Assembly: GCA_012103315.1 (NCBI GenBank)
Contig: WLWZ01000014.1
Location: 28,959 to 92,958 of the forward strand
Source: Alphaproteobacteria bacterium
Lineage (GTDB): Bacteria; Pseudomonadota; Alphaproteobacteria; MPNO01; UBA2964
Direction: 5' to 3'
DNA: 64,000 nt
The stretch's first letter is position 1. Each line of letters opens with the position of its first letter. The notes under the pieces were generated by a model. The model did no database searches and was not told the DNA's origin. It saw only the letters and a list, made by a program, of their open reading frames with translations. Below are positions 923 through 42,345 of this stretch, piece by piece. Made by a program: the position numbers and the translations under genes.

Positions 923-2578
923 ATGATCCGGCGCGTCAGGCTTGCAACAGGCCTCGTCCTGTTTTTCTACGTAACAACGCATTTGTTAAACCACGCACTG
1001 GGGTTGATCTCTTACGCCGCGATGGAGGATGGCCGCTTCTGGTTTTTGGGCCTTTGGCGCAATCCGGTCGGAACTATAGCGCTCTATGGATCAATGATGA
1101 TCCATTTCATGCTGGCGCTCTGGGCTCTCTATGACCGACGGCGGCTCAAATTCTCTATCGGAGAAGCGCTTCAGTTAAGTCTTGGTATTGCTATACCTTT
1201 GCTTCTCGCGTTGCATATCGTTGGAACGCGGGGCGCGCATGAAATCGCCGGGACGAATGATAATTACGCATTTGTTCTCCTCATTCATTTCAAATTTGCG
1301 CCCGAGGTTGTCTTTACACAGACTGCAGCTGTTATCGCCGCCTGGGTGCATGGCTGTATCGGGCTTTTTTACTGGCTTCGCCTCAAACCCTGGTTTTCGA
1401 AATGGTCGCAAGTTCTCTTCAGCTTTGCGTTGTTGATCCCGGTTTTGTCGATCCTTGGTTATATCGAGGGCGGTCGTGAAGTTCTGGCGCTGTTTGAGAA
1501 TAAGGAATGGCGAGATGCGGCACGGGCGGCAATCAATTTCCCATCGAACGAGGCCCGCGCACAAATAGAGTTTATTGCGCAAATGGATCGATCGATTGTT
1601 GTTGGGTCCTTTATATTGGTCCTTCTTGCGCGAGGCGTTCGTGCGTTGCTAGCCCGACGGCGAGGTATCGTTCATGTTACCTATCCTGACGGCAAGGCGG
1701 TAAGCGTTGCACCAGGGACAACAATTCTCGAAGCCAGCAAATCAAATGATATCCCGCACGCATCGGTCTGTGGTGGTCGTGGCCGATGTTCAACTTGTCG
1801 GGTACGCATTGTTGACGGTGAAGAAGCGTTGCCCGCGATATCGGATGATGAACAAAAAGTTCTGGACCGGATAAGTGCCCCACCTCATGTTCGGTTGGCC
1901 TGTCAAACACGTCCCATTAAAGACGTAACCGTGATGCCTTTGTTGCCGCCCACAGCGACACCAAAGGACGGTCATCAGCGCGCGGCCCATCATATGGGGC
2001 AGGAAAAGGAGATCGTGATCCTGTTCGCTGATTTACGTGATTTCACGAAATTCTCCGAGCAAAAACTGCCGTATGACTTGGTTTTTGTCCTGAACCGGTA
2101 TTTTGCCAATATGGGCGGTGCGGTTGGCGAGGCAGGTGGTCATCTCGATAAATTCATTGGAGATGGTGTCATGGCTCTGTTTGGCGTTGATGTACCAATT
2201 GCGGAAGGTGCCAAGCAAGCAATGAAGGCGGCGAAGCTCATGACTGAGCGTCTGGAAGAGCTTAATCAAACGTTGGCTGGTGAACTCGCTGAACCCTTGA
2301 GGATCGGTATTGGACTCCATGCTGGGCCGGCCATCATTGGCGAAATGGGGTATGGCGAGACCACGAGTCTCACGGCAGTTGGCGATGCGGTGAATACCGC
2401 TAGCCGTATTGAATCGATGACTAAGGAATACAAGGCTCAACTCATGTTGTCGCAAGGCGTTGCTGACCATGCAGGAATTGATTTATCGAGTTTTCCAAGC
2501 CATCAGCTTGACGTTCGCGGCCGTTCGGAGGATATCACTGCCCGAGTTATCGTGAACGCTAAAGATTTGCCAATTTAA
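923..2578 (+). CDS. Membrane-anchored 2Fe-2S ferredoxin-domain adenylate cyclase (class III)
   Basis: About 240 aa of N-terminal TM helices rich in His. A plant-type ferredoxin motif follows (CGGRGRCSTC...LACQT). The C-terminus is a class III cyclase domain (ILFADLRDFTKF, DKFIGDGVMALFG) with Lys at the substrate-specifying position, which points to adenylate cyclase. Confidence 0.75.
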   Translation: MIRRVRLATGLVLFFYVTTHLLNHALGLISYAAMEDGRFWFLGLWRNPVGTIALYGSMMIHFMLALWALYDRRRLKFSIGEALQLSLGIAIPLLLALHIVGTRGAHEIAGTNDNYAFVLLIHFKFAPEVVFTQTAAVIAAWVHGCIGLFYWLRLKPWFSKWSQVLFSFALLIPVLSILGYIEGGREVLALFENKEWRDAARAAINFPSNEARAQIEFIAQMDRSIVVGSFILVLLARGVRALLARRRGIVHVTYPDGKAVSVAPGTTILEASKSNDIPHASVCGGRGRCSTCRVRIVDGEEALPAISDDEQKVLDRISAPPHVRLACQTRPIKDVTVMPLLPPTATPKDGHQRAAHHMGQEKEIVILFADLRDFTKFSEQKLPYDLVFVLNRYFANMGGAVGEAGGHLDKFIGDGVMALFGVDVPIAEGAKQAMKAAKLMTERLEELNQTLAGELAEPLRIGIGLHAGPAIIGEMGYGETTSLTAVGDAVNTASRIESMTKEYKAQLMLSQGVADHAGIDLSSFPSHQLDVRGRSEDITARVIVNAKDLPI

Positions 2579-27912: not shown

Positions 27913-29010
27913 ATGAGTAAAGTCGGTGTCATCGGGGGTGTTTGCACGACGCATGCTCCCCAACTTTGGACTCTCCCCGAATCGGAAGACCCCAATGTGG
28001 TCAACCGGGTGAAAGATCTCCTTACCGGCGTTGGTGACAAACTCAAGGCTATGAAGCCCGATATTTGCATTGTCATCGCCAATGATCATGCGCATCAGTT
28101 TCTACTGCACTGCACAGCCAGCTTCACGATGCATATTGGCGGTGTAGCGGAAGGGAGTTTTGCCGGCCGTGATTATGAATATCCAGTCGCCAGTCAGGCA
28201 TCCCTGGACCTCCTCCGCTATGCCCAACGTAATAACGTTGATCCCGCGTTCACCAGTAACGCCAAGATCGATTATGCCTTTGGCATTCCGCTGGATTTCA
28301 CCGGCATAGATAACATCCCGATCCTACCAATTTTCGTGAATGCCTACGTCCCACCACAGCCTTCTATAGAAAGATGTTTTGCTTTTGGTCGTATCCTTGG
28401 AGACGGGATTAAGGCCTTGGGCCTACGCGCCGTCGTCGTCTGTAGTGGTGGTCTTTCACATTACCCTGGCACCGAACGCTATATGGACCCGGGCCCTGAC
28501 GAAGAATTTGATCGTCATTTCATGGGCATGATGGAACGAGGTGAGCTCCGCTACTTACTGGCCCTCGATGAAAAGAAACTCGATGAAACAGGTAATATTG
28601 AGCTGCGCTGCTGGGGTGTTGCGGCGGGTATGATTGGAGAACGCCCGCCTGACGTCACTAATTTTGAACCAACCTGGCATCATAATTACGGAACCGTGGC
28701 CTGGACAAACGAGCCTGAAGAAGAAACTTTCGAGCCGCATTACCCCCACATTCATCCGGAGCGAGTGGTATTGTCGGAGACGCTGCATAATCTTGCCGGA
28801 GATCGAAATGAACGGGAAAGATACTTGGCCGACCCAACAGCCTACGCAGCAGCAATTGAAGGCCTCAGCGAAGAAGAACGCAAAGCGCTCGTTGCGTTGG
28901 ATCAGTCTGAAATGATTGCGATGGGCATGCACCCGTTCGTACCACACAGCTTTAGACGGGTTCTGGAGCGCGCGGGTATCCTCGAGGCTGCAGCACCACC
29001 CAAGAAATAA
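27913..29010 (+). CDS. Class III extradiol ring-cleavage dioxygenase (LigB family) with a fused LigA-like C-terminal domain
   Basis: LigB-type N-terminal domain (VIANDHAH, His ligands). The C-terminal region (GLSEEERKALVALD) resembles the LigA/GalA C-terminal domain. Confidence 0.65.
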   Translation: MSKVGVIGGVCTTHAPQLWTLPESEDPNVVNRVKDLLTGVGDKLKAMKPDICIVIANDHAHQFLLHCTASFTMHIGGVAEGSFAGRDYEYPVASQASLDLLRYAQRNNVDPAFTSNAKIDYAFGIPLDFTGIDNIPILPIFVNAYVPPQPSIERCFAFGRILGDGIKALGLRAVVVCSGGLSHYPGTERYMDPGPDEEFDRHFMGMMERGELRYLLALDEKKLDETGNIELRCWGVAAGMIGERPPDVTNFEPTWHHNYGTVAWTNEPEEETFEPHYPHIHPERVVLSETLHNLAGDRNERERYLADPTAYAAAIEGLSEEERKALVALDQSEMIAMGMHPFVPHSFRRVLERAGILEAAAPPKK

Positions 29011-31782: not shown

Positions 31783-32709
31783 ATGATTATCGATACGCAT
31801 ATTCACGTTTGGAGCTACCCTGCCCTCGCTGATGCACGAGACCATATAAAATCAACCAAAGATCTGGTGAGTTTTCGTAGCCGCTGCCCGGACCTTTATG
31901 ATCGGACGTTAACGGAAGATCCGATTGATAATTCGGATCAGTTGATCGCCGACATGGATGAGTTTGGGATTGACCGGGCTTTCGTACAGGCACGCCCCGG
32001 ATCGGTCACCAACGATCAGGTCGCATTGTCTGTTGAACGACACCCTGACCGCCTCTATGGCCTGATGCGAATTGGTCACGATCAGGAAGCCGCGTATGAA
32101 TATTTGGAAGACCCGGCTCCCGTCCGTGACGGCGCGGCGGATGAGGTCGCCCATTGTATCGAAGATTTGGGTATGATCGGTCTTGGTGAAATTTTTATCC
32201 GTGCGATGACGGCGGAGGTCGATCCCGAAAAAATCGCCAAAGACCTCGTCCCAATGATGGATGCCGTCAATCACTATAAGGTACCGGTGCAGTTTCCAAC
32301 GGCATGGTCACAGTTTCCCGGCGGATTGTTTTATGGTCATCCGGTATGGGCTGATGAGGTCGCCGCTCGTTATCCGGATGTTCCGATCATCCTTACCAAG
32401 ATGGGACGAAGCCTGATTACTTATTTTGAGCCCTGTATGGCCGTGGGAATGCGCAACGAGAATGTTTATTTCGATGTGGTTGGAACGAATGCTGATCATT
32501 TAAGACAAGCACTCGATCTATTGGGGTCTGAGCGGATTATGTTTGGCTCGGATTGGTCTGCGACCTGGAGCTGTGTTCGCGAACCCGCCCCGCTCTACAC
32601 CATGCGGCTTAAAGTCCTGGAAGATGCAGGGTGTACGGAGGAAGAACGCGAGAACATTCTGTGGCGTAACGCGGCGCGGTTGTTCAAGCTAAACGATATT
32701 GCGAATTAG
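31783..32709 (+). CDS. Amidohydrolase-2 family metal-dependent hydrolase (LigI/LigJ/ACMSD-like TIM barrel)
   Basis: MIIDTHIHVW N-terminal HxH metal motif and conserved downstream His/Asp. 308 aa. Confidence 0.7.
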   Translation: MIIDTHIHVWSYPALADARDHIKSTKDLVSFRSRCPDLYDRTLTEDPIDNSDQLIADMDEFGIDRAFVQARPGSVTNDQVALSVERHPDRLYGLMRIGHDQEAAYEYLEDPAPVRDGAADEVAHCIEDLGMIGLGEIFIRAMTAEVDPEKIAKDLVPMMDAVNHYKVPVQFPTAWSQFPGGLFYGHPVWADEVAARYPDVPIILTKMGRSLITYFEPCMAVGMRNENVYFDVVGTNADHLRQALDLLGSERIMFGSDWSATWSCVREPAPLYTMRLKVLEDAGCTEEERENILWRNAARLFKLNDIAN

Positions 32710-32711
32710 GT

Positions 32712-33287
32712 TTATTGCTTGCCTAAGGTAGCGAGGACGCGCTCAACATCGGGACGTTGCCGGTAATTCTCTGTCGAAAAACGATGGCTGATTTTGCCAT
32801 CAGCATTAACGACAAAGATTGCCGGTAAGGCGATGCCATACCAGGCACTGGATTTAGACACGCCCGGTTTGATTAAACCAAAAGCACCAATGATATCGGC
32901 CTTGGGATCCGCCAGCAGCGTATAGGAAATACCTTCATCGGCGGAGAATTGCTTGTGGACGTCGACGCCGTCTTTCGTAACAAGTACGATGTCATAACCG
33001 AGCTTGGTGAATTCCTGATGTTTTGCATTCCAGGCGACCGCCTGGCGTTTGCAGTGAGGTCACCAATCCAATGACCGTGAAAACATCACGATCAAGCCCC
33101 GCTTTCTGGCGAGTGATTTGAAATCCCGATACTGACTGTTCTGATCCTGTGCTTTGAGGGAATGCGGTAAAGCGGTCCCGACTTTAGGACCGACCTTAAT
33201 CTCATCAACGGCAAAACTTGGTGTCACTTGACCCAATGAAAAGGTCAGAGCCAAGGCCGCCAGCAGAATTTTAAAGGTTCGGTTCAT
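32712..33287 (-). CDS. Secreted thioredoxin-fold redoxin (TlpA/ResA-like) with an in-frame TGA at the first Cys of WCxxC: candidate selenoprotein (W-U-P-H-C) or pseudogene
   Basis: Signal peptide ...FSRSLDW, then TGA at 33060-33062, then the same frame stays open for 115 more codons (PHCKRQAVAWNAKHQEF ... ATLGKQ) to TAA at 32712-32714. A hairpin sits downstream of the TGA. Confidence 0.5.
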
Positions 33288-33492
33288 TGTGGTCTCAGTC
33301 CAGTATCTAATGGCTGATATAGTCGCGGTTGTTACAGCCGAAAGTCAATTCTTAATACGGATTTGCGCTTCAGATGAGCGTTCACATTTTCGTATGGTTG
33401 GATATTTCGGTTGCTGCTACTAGTTCGTTTGAAGACACCTACCCGGTACCCTATAACTAAAGCGATATGAAATATCCTCTCCGCAAGATCGA

Positions 33493-36348
33493 TTGAGCAT
33501 GGCTGGCAAAATTGTTGTTCGTGGTGCCCGCGAACATAATCTGAATAATGTTGATATTGCGCTGCCGCGTGATTCACTGGTCGTGATGACTGGTGTGTCG
33601 GGTTCCGGCAAGTCGTCACTGGCCTTCGATACAATTTATGCCGAGGGGCAACGTCGGTATGTCGAAAGCCTCTCAGCCTATGCACGGCAGTTTCTGGAAA
33701 TGATGCAGAAGCCCGATGTCGATTCCATCGAAGGCCTCTCACCGGCAATTTCCATCGAACAAAAGACCACGTCGCGAAATCCCCGTTCGACAGTCGGCAC
33801 GGTAACTGAGATTTACGATTATCTCCGACTGTTGTTCGCGCGGGCGGGTATCCCCTACTCACCAGCTACTGGCTTGCCGATTGAAAGCCAGACTGTTTCC
33901 CAGATGGTCGATCGTGTCCTGGAGATGGAAGAAGGCACCCGGCTCTATTTGTTGGCGCCAATTGTGCGAGGTCGAAAGGGAGAGTACCGGAAGGAGCTGG
34001 CAGAACTTCAAAAGAAAGGCTTCCAACGCGTTAAAATCGATGGCGAGCATTATCAGATCGAGGAAGCGCCGGCGCTAAAAAAGACCTACAAGCACGATAT
34101 TGATGTGGTCGTTGATCGGCTGGTCGTCCGACCTGACTTGGGTAATCGTCTAGCGGATTCCCTGGAGACCGCTCTTGAGCTGGCTGACGGGCTTGCGATA
34201 ACCGAAAATGCGAAGGACGGTGATCGGGTAATCTTCTCTGCCAAGTTCGCTTGTCCGGTATCGGGCTTTACGATTGATGAGATCGAACCGCGATTGTTTT
34301 CGTTCAACGCTCCGGCTGGCGCGTGCCCAGCCTGTGATGGTCTGGGCACATCGTTGTATTTCGATCCAGAACTGATCGTTCCTGATACCAGTAAGAGCCT
34401 GAAAGATGACGCGATTGCCCCCTGGGCCAATTCTAAGTCACCCTATTACGCGCAGACGCTCGATTCTCTCGCCCGGCACTACAAGGTTTCGGTCAACACC
34501 CCGTTCAAGGAGTTGAAAAAGGCCGCCCAGGAAGGGATCCTCTGGGGATCTGGCGATAAATCCGTAAAGATGACTTACGCCGACGATGGTCGGGAATATT
34601 CAATTGATCGTCCCTTTGAAGGTGTTATCCCGAATATGCAGCGCCGGTTTCGAGAAACCGATAGCTCTTGGGTGCGGGATGATCTCGGGCGTTTTCAGAG
34701 TAATACTGCCTGTGAGACTTGTGGCGGCATGCGACTACGGCCAGAGGCGCTCGCGGTTAAACTAGATGGCCTGCATATCAGCGAGATCACAGAGTTTTCA
34801 ATTTTGGCTGCGCGCGATTGGTTTGCGGCCCTACCGAAATCGCTCACCGATAAACAGGCTGAGATCGCCAGCCGTATTCTCAAGGAAATTAATGAACGGC
34901 TGAGCTTTCTGGTCGATGTTGGACTGGAATATCTCACCCTTTCACGGTCTTCCGGAACATTGTCGGGTGGTGAAAGCCAGCGCATTCGCCTCGCTTCTCA
35001 GATCGGTTCGGGGCTGACGGGTGTTCTGTACGTCCTGGATGAGCCGTCGATTGGCCTGCATCAACGCGACAATGCGCGGCTTTTGGAAACACTGCGGCGT
35101 TTGCGGGACCTCGGAAACACCGTTCTCGTCGTTGAACATGATGAAGATGCTATCCGGTCAGCTGACTATCTCGTTGATCTCGGTCCCGGTGCCGGTATTC
35201 ATGGTGGTAAAATCGTCGCGCATGGCCCTCCAGCCAAGGTGATGAAGGCCAAGAACAGCATCACGGCACAATATTTGACGGGTGTTCGTTGCGTTGAAAT
35301 TCCTGCGGAACGACGATCAGGCAAAAAGGGACAATCTCTGACTATCGAGGGGGCTGCCGCTAATAATCTACAAGGCGTCAATGCTGCGATACCGCTCGGG
35401 ACAATGACGGCGATTACCGGTGTTTCGGGCAGTGGCAAGTCGACGTTGATCATCGACACGCTCTATAAGGCAATTTCACGCCGTTTGCATGGGGCCCGCG
35501 CGGTCCCAGGTGCTCATGATGATATCAAAGGTCTCGAATTTATCGATAAAGTTGTTGAGATCGATCAATCGCCGATCGGTAGAACGCCGCGCTCTAATCC
35601 CGCGACCTACACTGGAACCTTCACGCCAATCCGTGAATGGTTCGCAGGGTTACCCGAAGCCAAAGCGCGTGGCTACAAACCGGGACGGTTCTCATTTAAC
35701 GTCAAAGGCGGTCGTTGCGAAGCCTGTCAGGGTGACGGCGTCATCAAAATTGAGATGCATTTCCTGCCCGACGTCTATGTCGAATGTGATGTTTGCAAAG
35801 GCAGCAGATACAACCGAGAAACACTTGAAATAGAGTTTAGAAACAAATCCATAGCAGATGTTCTTAACCTGACAGTTGATGAAGGGTGTGAGTTCTTTAA
35901 AGCTGTTCCGTCGATCCGAGAGAAACTGGAAATGTTGCAACGGGTAGGGCTTGGTTATATCCATATAGGCCAGCAAGCCACGACCCTTTCAGGCGGCGAA
36001 GCCCAGCGCGTCAAACTCTCCAAAGAATTGGCGCGACGCTCGACCGGCAAAACCATCTATATTCTGGATGAACCGACCACCGGTCTGCATTTCGAGGATG
36101 TCCGTAAGCTTCTGGAAGTCCTGCATGCCCTTGTCGAACAGGGAAACACCGTCGTTGTCATTGAACATAACCTCGAGGTTATCAAAACCGCAGATTGGAT
36201 CATTGATTTGGGCCCCGACGGCGGTAATAAGGGCGGTCGTCTCATTGCCAGCGGGACACCTGAAGACGTCGCGCAGACCAAGGGTAGCTATACAGGTGAG
36301 TATCTCGCCCCCTACCTCGGCAAACGAAAGCTTAAGAAAAGCGCCTAA
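33493..36348 (+). CDS. uvrA: Excinuclease ABC subunit A
   Basis: Two ABC ATPase modules (GVSGSGKSS and GVSGSGKST), zinc-finger Cys clusters and LSGGE signatures. 951 aa. Confidence 0.95.
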
Positions 36349-39324: not shown

Positions 39325-40137
39325 TCAGGATTTGAGCAAACTCGCTATTATGATCCGGCAACGACGCCAGGCGGCATTTGTCGGGTGCCCAGTAAATGGC
39401 GATGCTTTGATTCTGGTGAGACGTTTCAAATCGTACCGGGCGATCCACTGATAAAGTGCTAGATCGTTACTTGAAGTCTGCAAGTTTGGATCTAAATGCT
39501 CTGATGCGAGGTTAAGGACTTCACCGAATGCCCGAAGAGCCCTGTCAGTCCCTATTTGTGTCACCGCTATACCCGGTAAATAACAGCGCTGTTGTGCTCG
39601 ATAAAACTCAATTGACTTCAATAACCCGATGAGGGCCCATGCCGTCCCTATTCTGTTCGCAGTCTCTTCATCCGATCCTGTTATTTCGGTCACAAGCTGA
39701 AGCAGGCTTCCCGATGTCGATTGGGCATAAGATAACAATTCAGCGATGTCTTTAGGTTCGCGGTCTTCGAGATCAAATTCCCGTCCGTTGATCATGTCGT
39801 CGAAATGCGGACGGCTTAATGAATATTCTTTGACGATAAAGGACAGAGCCAAAACTACTTCATGATTTCTGGGCGTTCCCTGATAAATGCCGTCAAGCGC
39901 TTCACGCCACCACTGAAGCCTTATACGGCCCAACATTGGCTCTGAAACGGTTTCCCGTGTTTTGGAAATTTCGAGATTAAAGGCATACAGAACCAGGAGC
40001 GGCGCCCGAAACTTCTTTGGCGCGGCAATCGCTGTAAGGTAGCGATCAGGATCGAAGGTTCTTACCTGTAAAGCACAATACTCCATCGTGCCATCTAGGG
40101 AGGATCTATCTTGAGGGGCTGCGAACGACTCGTCCAA
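39325..40137 (-). CDS. Squalene/phytoene synthase-family protein lacking the first Asp-rich motif (NDUFAF6-like)
   Basis: Isoprenoid synthase class 1 fold pattern (LLVLYAFNLEISK ... RLQWWREAL), but no DDxxD at the expected position. Confidence 0.55.
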   Translation of the reverse strand: MDESFAAPQDRSSLDGTMEYCALQVRTFDPDRYLTAIAAPKKFRAPLLVLYAFNLEISKTRETVSEPMLGRIRLQWWREALDGIYQGTPRNHEVVLALSFIVKEYSLSRPHFDDMINGREFDLEDREPKDIAELLSYAQSTSGSLLQLVTEITGSDEETANRIGTAWALIGLLKSIEFYRAQQRCYLPGIAVTQIGTDRALRAFGEVLNLASEHLDPNLQTSSNDLALYQWIARYDLKRLTRIKASPFTGHPTNAAWRRCRIIIASLLKS

Positions 40138-40219
40138 GGGGCTACTGTCTCGTTTTTGACGCTATAATAGACATGTTCTTTTAACCCAATTTCGGAATGT
40201 CCCGAACGGAAGTTTTTCT

Positions 40220-41068
40220 TTGACCGCGAATACATCATTGGAAACGCCTACCAAGACCAGCAATGACGAGAACTTTCCCGTTGCTAGTTGGCTAATTCCT
40301 GCCGAGTTGCGGGAGCATGTGCATATTTTTTATCTTTGCGTTCGTGCCGGAGATGATGTGGCTGATTCCCCTGATCTAGAGCCAGAAGAGAAATCAGCTC
40401 TCCTAAAACGGATGGATGATGCCCTTCAAGGCAATGGCACAGTCGACGAGGTTACCCAAAATGCCTCCAATCACGCACTTAGCGCGGCTGAAACCGACGT
40501 AACAACTCAACATGCCCGTCATTTGCTGCAGGCCTTTACCATGGATGTGACCAAGAAGCGTTATCGCAACTGGTCCGAGCTGGTAAATTATTGCCTGTAT
40601 TCTGCAGCCCCTGTCGGACGATACCTGGTTGATCTACATGGCTGTGATGACCGCCCCAAGAAGGCAACGGATGCCCTTTGTATCGCCTTACAAATTCTCA
40701 ATCATTTACAGGATTGTAAGGATGATTATTTAGAAATTGATCGTGTTTATATCCCGGAGGATATGCTGAGAGCTCAAAAGATTGATGTGACGGCCTTAAA
40801 GGCGGATTGTGCGAGTGCCGAGCTTCGCGCTGTGCTAGATGCTGTTCTCGACCGGACAGATGAACTTTTGCAACACGCCCGCACCGGACCAAAGCAGATA
40901 TCACACCGTGGGCTACGACTGGAGACAGCGGTTATCGTCGCAATTGCCGAGAAGTTATCAAAGAAACTAAGACGGAATGATCCCATCGCTGGTCGTGTCG
41001 AACTGACGAAAATACAAAAGGCGTCGTGTGCCTTAAAAGGACTTTGGCGAGGAATGGTGACAGCGTAA
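40220..41068 (+). CDS. Squalene synthase-like enzyme HpnC/HpnD family (hopanoid-associated)
   Basis: Phytoene/squalene synthase family with intact Asp-rich motifs (YLCVRAGDDVADS, LQDCKDD). It lies directly upstream of an HpnE-like oxidase. Confidence 0.65.
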   Translation: MTANTSLETPTKTSNDENFPVASWLIPAELREHVHIFYLCVRAGDDVADSPDLEPEEKSALLKRMDDALQGNGTVDEVTQNASNHALSAAETDVTTQHARHLLQAFTMDVTKKRYRNWSELVNYCLYSAAPVGRYLVDLHGCDDRPKKATDALCIALQILNHLQDCKDDYLEIDRVYIPEDMLRAQKIDVTALKADCASAELRAVLDAVLDRTDELLQHARTGPKQISHRGLRLETAVIVAIAEKLSKKLRRNDPIAGRVELTKIQKASCALKGLWRGMVTA

Positions 41069-42345
41069 TGGGAACAGTACATGTCATTGGGGCTGGCATG
41101 GCTGGCCTATCCTGCGCTGTGCAGTGCGCTAAAGCTGGGCATTCTGTTGCAATCTATGAAGCCTCGCCACAAGCAGGCGGTAGATGCCGGTCATTTCAAG
41201 ATGAAGGGTTAGGTTGTCTCATAGATAATGGCAGCCATATGCTGATTGGCGCCAATGAAGCCACCAAAAACTATTTGGATGATATTGGATCTCGGGATTT
41301 GGTCTCCGAGATTGTGCCGGCAACATTCCCGTTCTTTCAGCCGGACACCGGTCAGCAATGGCAAATTAAACCGGGTTCACCCTATTTTCCCATGTGGCTC
41401 TTAGCACCTGGGCGTCGAGTCCCGGGAACTAATCCGATCGATTATGCGAAAGCGCTCAGACTCTCGCGGGCAAAAAAAGAGGACACGGTTCGTCAGATTA
41501 TCGGCGGCGATGATCCACTTTACGATAGACTTTGGCAGCCAATCTGCCGGGCAGTTTTAAATACAGATGCTGATGACGCTTCTGCCCAACTGCTCTGGAA
41601 AGTTCTCAAGCTGAGTTTTCTTAAAGGAGAGTCCGCTTGCCGACCGATGATCTTTGAAAAAGGTCTTTCGGCGGCTCTCGTCAATCCTGCACTCGCGTTT
41701 TTGGAAAACAGCGAAGCCAATATCAGATATCAAGCAAGGTTGCGGGGAATTCGTTGGGAAAACGACGTTGTTCTCGCGATGCGCTTTCCAGAAGGGCTCT
41801 TACGGGTAGAGAACGAAGATACAGTTGTCTTAGCCGTACCACCTGATATTTCTGCTGAACTATGGCCCGATACTAACCCTCCGCAGGAAACACTCCCTAT
41901 CGTCAATGTGCATTTTCGCGTTCGGGAACCTGTTGAGCTTCCCGGTGGACTCCCGTTCCTGGGGCTTATCGGAACTGATTCACAGTGGATTTTTTCAAGA
42001 GATAACGTGCTATCGATCACGATTAGCGCCGCTTCTGCCCATGTCGATATGCCTAATTGGGAAATCGCCAATCAATTATGGTCAGAAGTTACCGCAATTC
42101 TTGGACGAAATATGGGACGCCTTCCACCATGGCGCGTTATCAAAGAACGTCGTGCAACGATTGCTCAAACACCAACGGTTTTGGCAAGTCGTCCTGGCGC
42201 AAAGACCGCTCTCAATAATTTATTCATTGCTGGTGATTGGACCAATACTGGCCTCCCCGCAACGATCGAAGGCGCAATTCAGTCAGGGCGCCGTGCTGCC
42301 AGGCTGGCGATCAGACGAATGACAAAAGTTCCTGAAGATAATTAA
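41068..42345 (+). CDS. hpnE: Hydroxysqualene dehydroxylase-like FAD-dependent amine oxidase
   Basis: VHVIGAGMAGLSCAVQCAKAGHSVAIYEA FAD dinucleotide fold, about 425 aa. TAATG overlap with the upstream gene. Confidence 0.65.
   Translation: MGTVHVIGAGMAGLSCAVQCAKAGHSVAIYEASPQAGGRCRSFQDEGLGCLIDNGSHMLIGANEATKNYLDDIGSRDLVSEIVPATFPFFQPDTGQQWQIKPGSPYFPMWLLAPGRRVPGTNPIDYAKALRLSRAKKEDTVRQIIGGDDPLYDRLWQPICRAVLNTDADDASAQLLWKVLKLSFLKGESACRPMIFEKGLSAALVNPALAFLENSEANIRYQARLRGIRWENDVVLAMRFPEGLLRVENEDTVVLAVPPDISAELWPDTNPPQETLPIVNVHFRVREPVELPGGLPFLGLIGTDSQWIFSRDNVLSITISAASAHVDMPNWEIANQLWSEVTAILGRNMGRLPPWRVIKERRATIAQTPTVLASRPGAKTALNNLFIAGDWTNTGLPATIEGAIQSGRRAARLAIRRMTKVPEDN

What the first reader, a model, noticed from the sequence alone, without database searches (positions are those of the whole stretch)
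32712..33287. In-frame TGA at the nucleophilic Cys position of a secreted WCxxC redoxin, with a bSECIS-like hairpin: candidate selenoprotein
Minus-strand ORF 33060..33287 encodes a signal peptide and ends ...FSRSLDW at TGA (33060-33062). The same frame then stays open for 115 further codons (PHCKRQAVAWNAKHQEFTKLGYDIVLVTKDGVDVHKQFSADEG...ATLGKQ) down to TAA at 32712-32714. Joined across the TGA, the sequence reads W-[TGA]-P-H-C-K-R-Q. This is the WCxxC active site of TlpA/ResA/redoxin-type thiol-disulfide oxidoreductases, with TGA exactly at the attacking Cys, the position where Sec replaces Cys in known UxxC selenoproteins. Downstream the mRNA reads UGA-CCUCAC-UGCA-AACG-CCAGGC-GGUC-GCCUGG-AA-UGCA. 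This is a two-tier stem-loop (plus-strand 33024..33053) that starts 7 nt after the UGA and has an apical GGUC loop carrying the G-U dinucleotide expected of bacterial SECIS elements. Marine alphaproteobacteria are known to be rich in Sec-containing redox proteins. The alternative is a pseudogene or a sequencing error (TGC/TGT to TGA).
Basis: partly seen in the sequence, partly recalled or inferred. Interest (0 to 1): 0.85.

Follow-up and report, generated by a model that had tools for sequence, protein, structure and literature searches.

The report
Exported peroxiredoxin-like selenoprotein gene
This is very probably a real gene for a secreted thiol-redox protein that uses selenocysteine (encoded by an in-frame TGA) in its active site; it belongs to a selenoprotein family known from marine bacteria for about 20 years, so it matters mainly because annotation pipelines split it into two fragments.

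Summary
The minus-strand gene 33287..32712 encodes one 191-residue AhpC/TSA-fold protein with a signal peptide and an in-frame TGA (33062-33060) at the first position of a W-U-P-H-C motif.

- **TGA conservation:** five further lineages (44-88% identity) carry TGA at the same codon. About 30 more distant relatives carry TGC/TGT (W-C-P-Y/F-C).
- **Translation of the 3' part:** the 115 codons after the TGA are under strong purifying selection (dN/dS 0.02-0.09). The first 66 contain no possible start codon.
- **SECIS:** a 6-bp hairpin with a GGUC tetraloop (33045..33030) lies 14 nt after the UGA. It meets all four published bacterial SECIS criteria and has the same loop as E. coli fdhF. It is invariant at synonymous sites (4/4 codons against 1/47 elsewhere, p = 2e-5) and absent from the Cys forms.
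- **Stop usage:** TGA ends 17 of 42 long ORFs here, so the code is standard.

The protein fits the known "Prx-like thiol:disulfide oxidoreductase" (PF00578, UxxC) selenoprotein family, so it is a new member of a known kind and of modest interest.

The parts
32712..33287 (-). Complete selenoprotein gene: 191 sense codons (codon 76 = TGA/Sec) plus TAA stop at 32714-32712
   Evidence: Orthologues of the same length and the same TGA codon.
33210..33287 (-). Predicted Sec-type signal peptide, residues 1-26 (MNRTFK / hydrophobic core / SFA, then VDE)
   Evidence: By inspection of the sequence; no signal-peptide predictor was available. All orthologues and the Cys forms have an equivalent N-terminus. 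The equivalent 28 residues are disordered in the AlphaFold model of the Cys form.
32784..33161 (-). AhpC/TSA (thioredoxin-fold) domain, residues 43-168, spanning the TGA
   Evidence: Pfam PF00578, E = 7e-24. The model of the Cys homologue superposes on BCP/PrxQ at TM 0.87.
33060..33062 (-). In-frame TGA, codon 76: predicted selenocysteine
   Evidence: TGA at this codon in 6 lineages, and TGC/TGT in about 30 more distant relatives. TGA is otherwise a normal stop in this window, ending 17 of 42 long ORFs.
33051..33062 (-). Active-site motif U-P-H-C (residues 76-79), preceded by invariant F-S-R-S-L-D-W
   Evidence: Sec76 aligns with the peroxiredoxin Thr and Cys79 with the peroxidatic Cys.
33030..33045 (-). 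Predicted bacterial SECIS core: 6-bp stem CCAGGC/GCCUGG with GGUC tetraloop (loop = 33039..33036). It corresponds to nt 18-33 counting the U of UGA as 1.
   Evidence: Hairpin alone -10.1 kcal/mol; pair probability 0.97 in this window. 100% paired in 6 lineages. Synonymous sites invariant, p = 2e-5. Absent from Cys forms. Same loop as E. coli fdhF.
33024..33053 (-). It is present in this window, but the outer tier is not conserved.
   Evidence: MFE of this window includes it. The outer helix is paired in only 50% of cells across orthologues.
33288..33492 (.). Divergent intergenic region shared with uvrA (33493-36348, +); presumably holds the gene's promoter
   Evidence: ORF map. uvrA identity comes from the Pfam annotation of syntenic loci. 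No sigma-70 consensus match was found.

Best explanation
The gene encodes an exported (periplasmic) thioredoxin-fold oxidoreductase of the AhpC/TSA 'Prx-like' type. The N-terminal, attacking residue of its CxxC-type centre is selenocysteine (U-P-H-C).

Proposed mechanism of translation (inferred): when the ribosome reaches UGA at codon 76, the CCAGGC-GGUC-GCCUGG hairpin 14 nt downstream is bound by SelB-GTP-Sec-tRNA(Sec). SelB delivers Sec instead of allowing release-factor termination, and translation continues through the remaining 115 codons.

Proposed mechanism of the protein (inferred): the precursor is exported through the Sec translocon and its signal peptide is cleaved after Ala26. In the periplasm, the Sec76 selenolate attacks a substrate disulfide or another oxidised sulfur species. 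Cys79 resolves the intermediate, forming an intramolecular selenenylsulfide, which is recycled by an unidentified redox partner.

Shown: the single-domain architecture, conservation of the TGA, translation of the 3' part, the Cys/Sec pairing with homologues, and an RNA-level constraint on a hairpin that meets the SECIS criteria.

Inferred: SelB dependence, actual selenium insertion, export, and the chemistry and substrate.
For: 1. One AhpC/TSA domain spans the TGA.
2. TGA sits at the identical codon in six lineages: window, L001 at 88%, L002/L012 at 85-86%, L007/L013 at 71% (76% for P0001 over its N-terminal part), L014 at 52%, L015/16 at 44%. All have intact frames of about 191 codons.
3. All 22 distinct Cys-form relatives analysed have TGC/TGT at that codon. 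301 Cys-form clusters exist in the protein database.
4. Downstream of the TGA, dN/dS is 0.02-0.09 with pS of 0.56-0.83. In the window there is no in-frame ATG/GTG/TTG for 66 codons after the TGA, and no ATG at all.
5. The hairpin meets all four constraints of the published bSECIS model (PMC13188914, Fig. 2A): a 4-nt loop, a 6-bp stem, GG in the first loop positions, 20 nt between UGA and loop, and -10.1 kcal/mol.
6. Codons R-Q-A-V that form the hairpin are nucleotide-invariant in 6 lineages (4/4). Only 1 of 47 other amino-acid-invariant degenerate codons is (Fisher p = 2e-5). The single stem change is G-C to G.U.
7. Cys forms have no equivalent hairpin.
8. The loop GGUC is identical to that of the E. 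coli fdhF SECIS and sits 2 nt further from the UGA.
9. TGA terminates 17 of 42 long ORFs in the window.
10. Sec forms are monophyletic within the exported family.
11. The domain-plus-motif combination (pfam00578, UxxC) is that of a known selenoprotein family with 225 Sec and 2,740 Cys sequences in the GOS data (PMC2398784).
Against: - No selA, selB, selD or tRNA-Sec is in the 64-kb window or in any held flank. I could not examine the rest of any genome carrying the gene, so the decoding trait of the host is unverified.
- There is no compensatory covariation in the hairpin (0 pairs changed on both sides). Its support rests on conservation, not covariation.
- An alternative helix, pairing the GACC of UGA-CC with GGUC, is equally compatible with the conserved sequence. 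It is the predicted MFE in L014 and L015.
- Rfam gives no match.
- Export and chemistry are inferred from sequence and from a model of a 35%-identical Cys homologue.
Confidence: 0.88

Rival explanations
1. Sec-independent recoding: the UGA is read through by a near-cognate or suppressor tRNA (inserting Trp, Cys or Gly), with the downstream hairpin acting as a generic read-through stimulator. The mature protein would contain no selenium.
For: Sec machinery was not found in the window or the flanks and could not be checked genome-wide. The hairpin shows no covariation.
Against: - The TGA replaces exactly the redox-active Cys of the homologues. That is the signature of Sec/Cys pairs, not of leaky stops.
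- The hairpin meets the bSECIS model and carries the fdhF-type GGUC loop at nearly the same distance from the UGA.
- Trp or Gly at the attacking position would inactivate a CxxC centre, yet the gene is under strong purifying selection.
- UxxC forms of this domain are an established selenoprotein family.
Confidence: 0.06
2. Pseudogene: a nonsense mutation (TGC/TGT to TGA) inactivated a Cys-type redoxin gene.
For: A single in-frame stop inside a conserved domain. Public annotation splits the gene into fragments.
Against: - The same TGA is fixed in six lineages down to 44% identity, with no other stop or frameshift.
- dN/dS after the stop is 0.02-0.09 at near-saturated synonymous divergence.
- A truly decayed copy exists for comparison: L049-51 has several stops and frameshifts.
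Confidence: 0.02
3. Sequencing or assembly error at one base of a Cys codon.
For: A single-base difference separates TGA from TGC/TGT.
Against: - The window's 576-nt allele is identical in two other assemblies (ENA ERZ23499434, Logan SRR10090292).
- TGA recurs in unrelated projects: a complete MAG chromosome OX638326.1, JBMYRG01, PBIN01, Tara CEU* contigs and JGI Ga* contigs.
Confidence: 0.01
4. Two separate products: termination at TGA gives a 75-residue peptide, and the 3' part is translated independently by reinitiation. Alternatively, TGA is a sense codon in this organism.
For: NCBI's pipeline annotated an 89-aa C-terminal CDS in PBIN01000012.1.
Against: - No in-frame start codon of any kind occurs for 66 codons after the TGA in the window. 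Those codons include the second active-site Cys and helix 1, and they are under purifying selection.
- The split would cut a thioredoxin fold through its active site.
- TGA ends 17 of 42 long ORFs here, so it is not a general sense codon.
Confidence: 0.01

Closest known systems
Prx-like thiol:disulfide oxidoreductase selenoproteins (PF00578, UxxC/UxxU). These are called 'Prx-like protein' in the Sargasso Sea study and 'Prx-like 1' in the GOS study (Zhang and Gladyshev; PMC1088965, PMC2398784, PMC9312934, PMC13188914).
   Same: Same Pfam domain (PF00578), same Sec-containing motif (thioredoxin-like UxxC rather than the TxxU of true Sec-peroxiredoxins), a Sec/Cys pairing with abundant Cys homologues, a coding-region SECIS hairpin with G in the apical loop, and a marine bacterial origin.
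   Different: This clade has a signal peptide, the invariant context FSRS(L/V)(D/G)W-U-P-H-C, and only about 29% identity to the cytoplasmic GHW-U-PYC type seen in L003. I could not retrieve the family's reference sequence (WP_010940744.1) for a direct comparison. Whether this exported sub-clade was among the published sequences is unknown.
E. coli fdhF SECIS element (the experimentally characterised bacterial SECIS)
   Same: A hairpin in the coding region directly after the UGA, with an identical GGUC apical tetraloop. The loop is at nt 22-25 in fdhF and at nt 24-27 here. From my own knowledge of the literature, G23 and U24 of that loop are the bases contacted by SelB.
   Different: The upper stem here is a perfect 6-bp G+C-rich helix without the bulged U of fdhF. 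There is no conserved lower helix continuous with it. SelB binding has not been tested.
BCP/PrxQ peroxiredoxins (for example Xanthomonas campestris PrxQ 5iph, Sulfolobus Bcp4 3hjp)
   Same: These are the closest solved sequences (E = 1e-7) and folds (TM 0.87). Cys79 aligns with their peroxidatic Cys.
   Different: The peroxiredoxin active-site Pro-x3-Thr-x2-Cys and catalytic Arg are replaced: Ser72, Sec76 at the Thr position, and a variable residue at position 154. The NCBIfam BCP model scores 41 bits against a cut-off of 140. A thioredoxin-type mechanism is therefore more likely than a peroxiredoxin one.
TlpA/ResA/CcmG periplasmic thiol-disulfide oxidoreductases
   Same: Exported thioredoxin-fold proteins with a W-C-x-x-C centre. 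The fold similarity is TM about 0.8, with a weak sequence match to ResA (E = 7e-5).
   Different: The sequence scores lower than against BCP/AhpC-TSA. NCBIfam ResA scores 28.5 bits against a cut-off of 170. No cytochrome c maturation or DsbD/CcdA genes lie nearby in any lineage.
DsbA (C-P-H-C active site) and predicted Sec-containing DsbA-like, DsbG-like and thiol:disulfide interchange selenoproteins
   Same: A periplasmic location is predicted, and the x-x dipeptide P-H is identical to that of DsbA. PDB 3c71 is described as a ResA variant with the 'DsbA-like active site motif (CPHC)'. Exported UxxC selenoproteins are already on the published lists.
   Different: The fold subtype differs: this is AhpC/TSA with no DsbA helical insertion. 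Redox direction is unknown.
SelL and SelL-related redox proteins (NCBIfam NF040769)
   Same: A distant Prx-like thioredoxin-fold redox protein family that includes Sec forms.
   Different: The score is 35 bits against a cut-off of 120, so this protein is not a member.

Membership tests
Prx-like thiol:disulfide oxidoreductase selenoprotein (PF00578, UxxC) | AhpC/TSA domain (pfam00578) above the Pfam threshold | tested here: met
   84.6 bits against a cut-off of 26, E = 7e-24, residues 43-168 spanning the TGA.
Prx-like thiol:disulfide oxidoreductase selenoprotein (PF00578, UxxC) | In-frame TGA in a thioredoxin-like UxxC motif, aligned with the Cys of CxxC in homologues. The published criteria ask for at least 2 Cys homologues and at least 2 different TGA sequences (PMC1088965). 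| tested here: met
   6 distinct TGA lineages and 22 distinct Cys forms at the same column. 301 Cys-form clusters.
Prx-like thiol:disulfide oxidoreductase selenoprotein (PF00578, UxxC) | Bacterial SECIS-like hairpin immediately downstream of the TGA | tested here: met
   see the bSECIS rows below.
Prx-like thiol:disulfide oxidoreductase selenoprotein (PF00578, UxxC) | Sequence relationship to the family's reference member (WP_010940744.1, Geobacter) | not tested
   The reference sequence was not retrievable with these tools. Only the domain-plus-motif definition used in PMC9312934 and PMC13188914 was applied.
Selenoprotein (any) | Host genome encodes SelA, SelB, SelD and tRNA-Sec | not testable with these tools
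   None is present in the window or in the flanks of orthologues. The SelA homologue search returned 8,000 hits with no link to a carrier genome.
Selenoprotein (any) | Selenium actually incorporated at the UGA position | not testable with these tools
   This needs 75Se labelling or mass spectrometry.
Bacterial SECIS consensus model (bSECISearch; constraints as quoted in PMC13188914, Fig. 2A) | Apical loop of 3-9 nt and upper stem of 4-16 bp | tested here: met
   4-nt loop (GGUC) and 6-bp stem.
Bacterial SECIS consensus model (bSECISearch; constraints as quoted in PMC13188914, Fig. 2A) | At least one G in the first two loop positions (typically G followed by G or U) | tested here: met
   The loop is G-G-U-C and is invariant in 6 lineages.
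Bacterial SECIS consensus model (bSECISearch; constraints as quoted in PMC13188914, Fig. 2A) | [quoted passage not shown] | tested here: met
   20 nt (nt 4-23).
Bacterial SECIS consensus model (bSECISearch; constraints as quoted in PMC13188914, Fig. 2A) | Minimum free energy of -7.5 kcal/mol or lower | tested here: met
   -10.1 kcal/mol for the 16-nt hairpin alone and -15.1 for 49 nt. L015 is the marginal exception at -7.4 for the hairpin alone.
Bacterial SECIS consensus model (bSECISearch; constraints as quoted in PMC13188914, Fig. 2A) | Structure supported by compensatory base changes | tested here: inconclusive
   5 pairs never vary and 1 varies G-C to G.U, with no double changes. Support comes instead from synonymous-site invariance.
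Canonical peroxiredoxin (BCP/PrxQ type) | Active-site P-x3-T-x2-C motif and the conserved catalytic Arg | tested here: not met
   The Pro position is Ser72, the Thr position is Sec76, and the Arg position is Leu154, which is variable across the family. NCBIfam NF006960 scores 41 bits against 140.
TlpA/ResA/CcmG | Family-level sequence model, and association with cytochrome c maturation or DsbD/CcdA | tested here: not met
   NCBIfam ResA scores 28.5 bits against 170. Neighbours are uvrA, amidohydrolase, SDR, Ldh, flavodoxin-like, peptidase M28 and MoCo-binding genes.
SelL-related redox protein (NF040769) | NCBIfam score above the cut-off | tested here: not met
   35 bits against 120.

The most novel reading that the evidence does not exclude
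The exported FSRSLDW-U-P-H-C proteins may be a distinct, undescribed periplasmic sub-family. In this reading, the Cys-to-Sec switch was coupled to a Tyr/Phe-to-His switch in the active-site dipeptide, from the glutaredoxin-like C-P-Y-C to the DsbA-like U-P-H-C. That would retune the protein's redox role, for example from reductant to oxidant or isomerase, or to a selenium-specific chemistry. In addition, the conserved sequence can form either the SECIS hairpin or a mutually exclusive helix that sequesters the UGA, which might act as a switch controlling Sec insertion.
Probability: 0.1. Interest if true: 0.5.

Novelty: new member of a known kind. Interest (0 to 1): 0.27.

Why it matters
- **Annotation:** automated pipelines truncate or split this gene. 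NCBI record PBIN01000012.1 carries it as a 118-aa 'hypothetical protein' plus an 89-aa AhpC-TSA fragment. In the large protein collections the Sec forms appear only as N-terminal stubs. As a result, selenium use by uncultured marine Alphaproteobacteria is under-counted.
- **Biology:** it adds a clearly delimited, exported clade to the Prx-like UxxC selenoproteins. The clade has a clean Sec/Cys sister-group relationship, a SECIS with the same tetraloop as E. coli fdhF, and a decayed relative that illustrates selenoprotein loss.
- **Limits:** none of this changes current understanding of selenocysteine decoding.

Tried and rejected
- **Rfam:** scans at gathering threshold on the whole window, and at E ≤ 10 on 32900-33150, found no SECIS-type family. 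The only hits were chance matches to psbNH and RAGATH-25.
- **Sec machinery in the window:** ARAGORN found only tRNA-Lys. The 20 ORFs in the size range of SelA/B/D are unrelated enzymes.
- **Sec machinery in a carrier genome:** I took SelA and SelB from S. meliloti pSymA (verified against the PDB) and searched with SelA. The 8,000 hits, of which 120 are listed, were all Rhizobiales, Acetobacteraceae or Azospirillaceae. None could be tied to GCA_002720855.1 or OX638326.1.
- **Source genome:** an exact-protein look-up found only 3-6 kb contigs of one metagenome.
- **Literature:** the paper on selC nested in selB in Alphaproteobacteria (PMC8124441) does not cover these MAGs.
- **Structure:** I modelled the Cys homologue P0002 instead.
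- **Promoter:** the scan of the uvrA-divergent intergenic region gave no sigma-70 match.
- **Other selenoproteins:** a scan of the window for other TGA-containing redox motifs or split ORFs found no credible second selenoprotein.
- **Gene neighbourhoods:** comparison across Sec and Cys forms gave no conserved redox partner.
- **First fold comparison:** my first hairpin-versus-helix script used indices off by one. It was redone.
Full report
**1. The observation.** On the minus strand, an ORF starts at ATG 33287 and reads MNRTFKILLAALALTFSLGQVTPSFAVDE...FSRSLDW up to TGA at 33062-33060. The same frame continues for 115 codons (PHCKRQAVAWNAKHQEF...ATLGKQ) to TAA at 32714-32712. With Cys placed at the TGA, the 191-residue product gives a single Pfam AhpC-TSA match (PF00578, 84.6 bits, E = 7e-24, residues 43-168). 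It also matches Redoxin (PF08534, 59 bits). The match spans the TGA, so the two halves form one thioredoxin-fold domain.

**2. The TGA is conserved and the 3' part is translated.** One scan of reference genomes and one of metagenomes recovered relatives. An exact look-up of a truncated database protein (P0001) added six more loci. TGA sits at the identical codon in these lineages:
- the window;
- L001, a 4.15-Mb chromosome of an uncultured alphaproteobacterium (OX638326.1), 88% identity;
- L002/L012, 85-86%;
- L007/L013, a 'Rhodospirillaceae bacterium' MAG and Tara contigs, 71% over the full length;
- L014, 52%;
- L015/L016, 44%.

All six align without gaps over 157 codons and have no other stop. 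Downstream of the TGA, dN/dS is 0.02-0.09 while synonymous sites are near saturation (pS 0.56-0.83). In the window there is no in-frame ATG, GTG or TTG for 66 codons after the TGA, and no ATG in the whole 3' part. These conserved codons can therefore only be reached by decoding the TGA. A truly decayed copy exists for contrast: L049-51 has several stops and frameshifts, plus a second TGA at the Trp codon. The window's own 576-nt allele is identical in two other assemblies of one metagenome. Pseudogene, sequencing error and two-polypeptide explanations are thereby excluded. TGA terminates 17 of 42 long ORFs in the window, so the organism uses TGA as a normal stop.

**3. Sec/Cys pairing.** Every relative with TGA reads W-U-P-H-C-(K/Q)-R-Q-A-V. 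Every more distant relative (30-38% identity, about 30 loci) reads W-C-P-(Y/F)-C with TGC or TGT. In a neighbour-joining tree the Sec forms make one clade, sister to the Cys forms. The protein database holds 301 Cys-form clusters. They are full-length proteins of about 197 residues, named 'peroxiredoxin family protein', 'redoxin domain-containing protein' or 'peroxiredoxin Q/BCP', mostly from marine Hyphomonadaceae. The Sec forms appear there only as truncated stubs.

**4. The RNA element.** Counting the U of UGA as nt 1, the conserved element is a 6-bp stem (nt 18-23 with 28-33, CCAGGC/GCCUGG) closed by the tetraloop GGUC (nt 24-27). This corresponds to window 33045..33030. The published bacterial SECIS model requires four things (PMC13188914, Fig. 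2A):
- a 3-9 nt apical loop on a 4-16 bp stem;
- a G in the first two loop positions;
- 16-37 nt between UGA and loop;
- an MFE of -7.5 kcal/mol or lower.

Here the values are 4 nt, 6 bp, G-G, 20 nt and -10.1 kcal/mol for the hairpin alone. All four are met.

Across the six lineages the stem is 100% paired. Five pairs never vary and one changes G-C to G.U, through an Ala-to-Val substitution in L015. There is therefore no compensatory covariation. The evidence for an RNA-level constraint is different. Among codons whose amino acid is invariant and degenerate, 4 of 4 in the hairpin core (R-Q-A-V) are also nucleotide-invariant, against 1 of 47 elsewhere in the gene (Fisher p = 2e-5). For the wider region of codons +1 to +9, the count is 5 of 7 (p = 4e-5). 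The Cys forms have no comparable hairpin at this place.

I verified on the E. coli K-12 genome that the archetypal fdhF SECIS has the same GGUC tetraloop at nt 22-25, which is 2 nt closer to its UGA. That G23 and U24 of that loop contact SelB is from my own knowledge of the literature.

The same conserved sequence can also form a mutually exclusive helix, pairing nt 2-11 (including the GA of UGA) with nt 19-27. This helix is 92.6% paired, and it is the predicted MFE in L014 and L015, where the Pro codon is CCG. It does not meet the SECIS model: its loop is AAGC and lies 9 nt from the UGA. When nt 1-13 are masked, as by a ribosome, the SECIS hairpin forms in every lineage. I regard this helix as unexplained and probably incidental.

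**5. What the protein is.** The closest solved sequences are BCP/PrxQ peroxiredoxins (Xanthomonas 5iph, E = 1e-7), with ResA weaker (E = 7e-5). In the alignment, Sec76 falls on the conserved peroxiredoxin Thr and Cys79 on the peroxidatic Cys. The peroxiredoxin Pro corresponds to Ser72, and the catalytic Arg corresponds to position 154, which is Leu here and variable in the family. No NCBIfam model reaches its cut-off: BCP scores 41 against 140, SelL-related 35 against 120, and ResA 28.5 against 170.

The window protein itself could not be submitted for structure prediction. An AlphaFold model of the Cys homologue P0002 is confident (pLDDT 86, above 90 over the mature domain; pTM 0.80). It has a disordered N-terminal 28 residues, consistent with a signal peptide, and places the CxxC at the N-terminus of the first long helix. 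It superposes best on BCP/PrxQ (TM 0.87), then ResA (about 0.8).

The protein is therefore a thioredoxin-type UxxC centre on an AhpC/TSA scaffold that lacks the peroxiredoxin catalytic residues. [quoted passage not shown]

The signal peptide has positively charged residues, a hydrophobic core and S-F-A before the cleavage site. It was judged by eye, and it is present in every Sec and Cys form.

**6. Context.** The gene lies between uvrA (divergent, 33493-36348) and an Amidohydro_2 gene (convergent, 31783-32709). An SDR gene and a 2-hydroxyacid dehydrogenase gene follow. This order is kept in the L006-L011 lineage. More distant Sec forms have other neighbours: a molybdopterin-binding large subunit in both L014 and L015, and Amidohydro_2 again in L014. 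Cys forms sit next to Ldh, a flavodoxin-like reductase and a peptidase M28 gene. No DsbD/CcdA, cytochrome c maturation or other redox-partner gene is linked, so the substrate remains unknown.

**7. What could not be shown.** No selA, selB, selD or tRNA-Sec lies in the window or in the flanks of any orthologue. The attempt to find SelA in a carrier genome failed for technical reasons. The host's ability to decode Sec is therefore inferred from the gene itself. The remaining rival, Sec-independent read-through, keeps about 6%.

**8. Comparison with what is known, and verdict.** By the domain-plus-motif definition used in the field (pfam00578, UxxC), this is a 'Prx-like thiol:disulfide oxidoreductase' selenoprotein. 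That family had 22 sequences in the Sargasso Sea study. It had 225 Sec and 2,740 Cys sequences in the GOS study ('Prx-like 1'), and current reviews list it as 'predicted with high confidence'. Exported UxxC selenoproteins (DsbA-like, DsbG-like, thiol:disulfide interchange protein) are also already listed.

Novelty is limited to a well-delimited exported U-P-H-C clade in uncultured marine Alphaproteobacteria and to the correction of public annotations: PBIN01000012.1 splits the gene into a 118-aa hypothetical protein and an 89-aa AhpC-TSA fragment. Confidence that this is a real Sec-encoding gene is 0.88. Interest is 0.27.

Noticed in passing
L049, L050, L051 (about 1400-2000 in each; Tara/ENA contigs MDTD01014053.1, CEUQ01157678.1, CEUM01129844.1): A decayed copy of the Sec-form gene, most like L014. 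It keeps W-TGA-PHCKRQAV and most of the hairpin sequence, but has a second TGA at the Trp codon, further stops and frameshifts. It looks like a selenoprotein gene being lost in one lineage.
   Followed up: partly
window 33054-33056 (His78 codon CAC); alignment: The residue before the resolving Cys is His in all 6 Sec forms (U-P-H-C, the DsbA-type dipeptide), and Tyr or Phe in all 22 Cys forms and in the distant Sec paralogue L003. The His codon is CAC in all six lineages, although CAT would be synonymous. Whether this reflects redox tuning of the Sec centre or an RNA constraint is unknown.
   Followed up: partly
window 33036-33061 (nt 2-27 after the U of UGA), and the same positions in L014, L015: An alternative helix pairs the GA of the UGA plus CC(N)C.CUG with CAG(G/C)GGUC, and is mutually exclusive with the SECIS hairpin. 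It is the predicted MFE in L014 and L015 (-19.3 and -16.1 kcal/mol), but has probability of 0.13 or less in the window clade.
   Followed up: partly
L003:2893-3378 (Rhodospirillales SAG AH-558-E05, JAOMCN010000022.1): A second, distantly related (about 29%) Prx-like selenoprotein gene without a signal peptide, reading FYRGHW-TGA-PYCRRQ. Its predicted hairpin includes the GA of the UGA and has a different loop.
   Followed up: partly
L007:3001-3705 (NCBI GCA_002720855.1, PBIN01000012.1): The public annotation splits the orthologue into a 118-aa 'hypothetical protein', with a start probably placed too far upstream, and a separate 89-aa AhpC-TSA CDS. In the other assemblies only the N-terminal stub is called.
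   Followed up: yes
L014:2001-3437 and L015:2668-3438: In both divergent Sec-form lineages, the gene convergent with the selenoprotein gene encodes a molybdopterin-binding large subunit (MoCoBD_1/2, xanthine dehydrogenase or CO dehydrogenase type). L014 also has an Amidohydro_2 gene next to it, as the window does. A functional link was not tested.
   Followed up: no
window 39325-42345: Two squalene/phytoene synthase-family genes (39325-40137 on the minus strand, 40220-41068 on the plus strand) are followed by a flavin amine-oxidase-family gene (41026-42345). This arrangement resembles hpnC-hpnD-hpnE squalene synthesis clusters (the resemblance is from memory).
   Followed up: no
window 923-2578 (+): A 551-aa ORF combines a 2Fe-2S ferredoxin domain (residues 256-331) with an adenylate/guanylate cyclase catalytic domain (360-507). 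It may be a redox-sensing cyclase.
   Followed up: no
window 27913-29010 (+): A single 365-aa ORF carries both LigB (residues 10-259) and LigA (290-344) domains of aromatic ring-opening dioxygenase, meaning the two subunits are fused.
   Followed up: no
window 32748-32804: Four terminator-like hairpin/T-run matches (1.1 expected from shuffles) fall inside the 3' coding part of the selenoprotein gene, on both strands. They lie close to where it converges with the Amidohydro_2 gene, with only 2 nt between the two stop codons.
   Followed up: no
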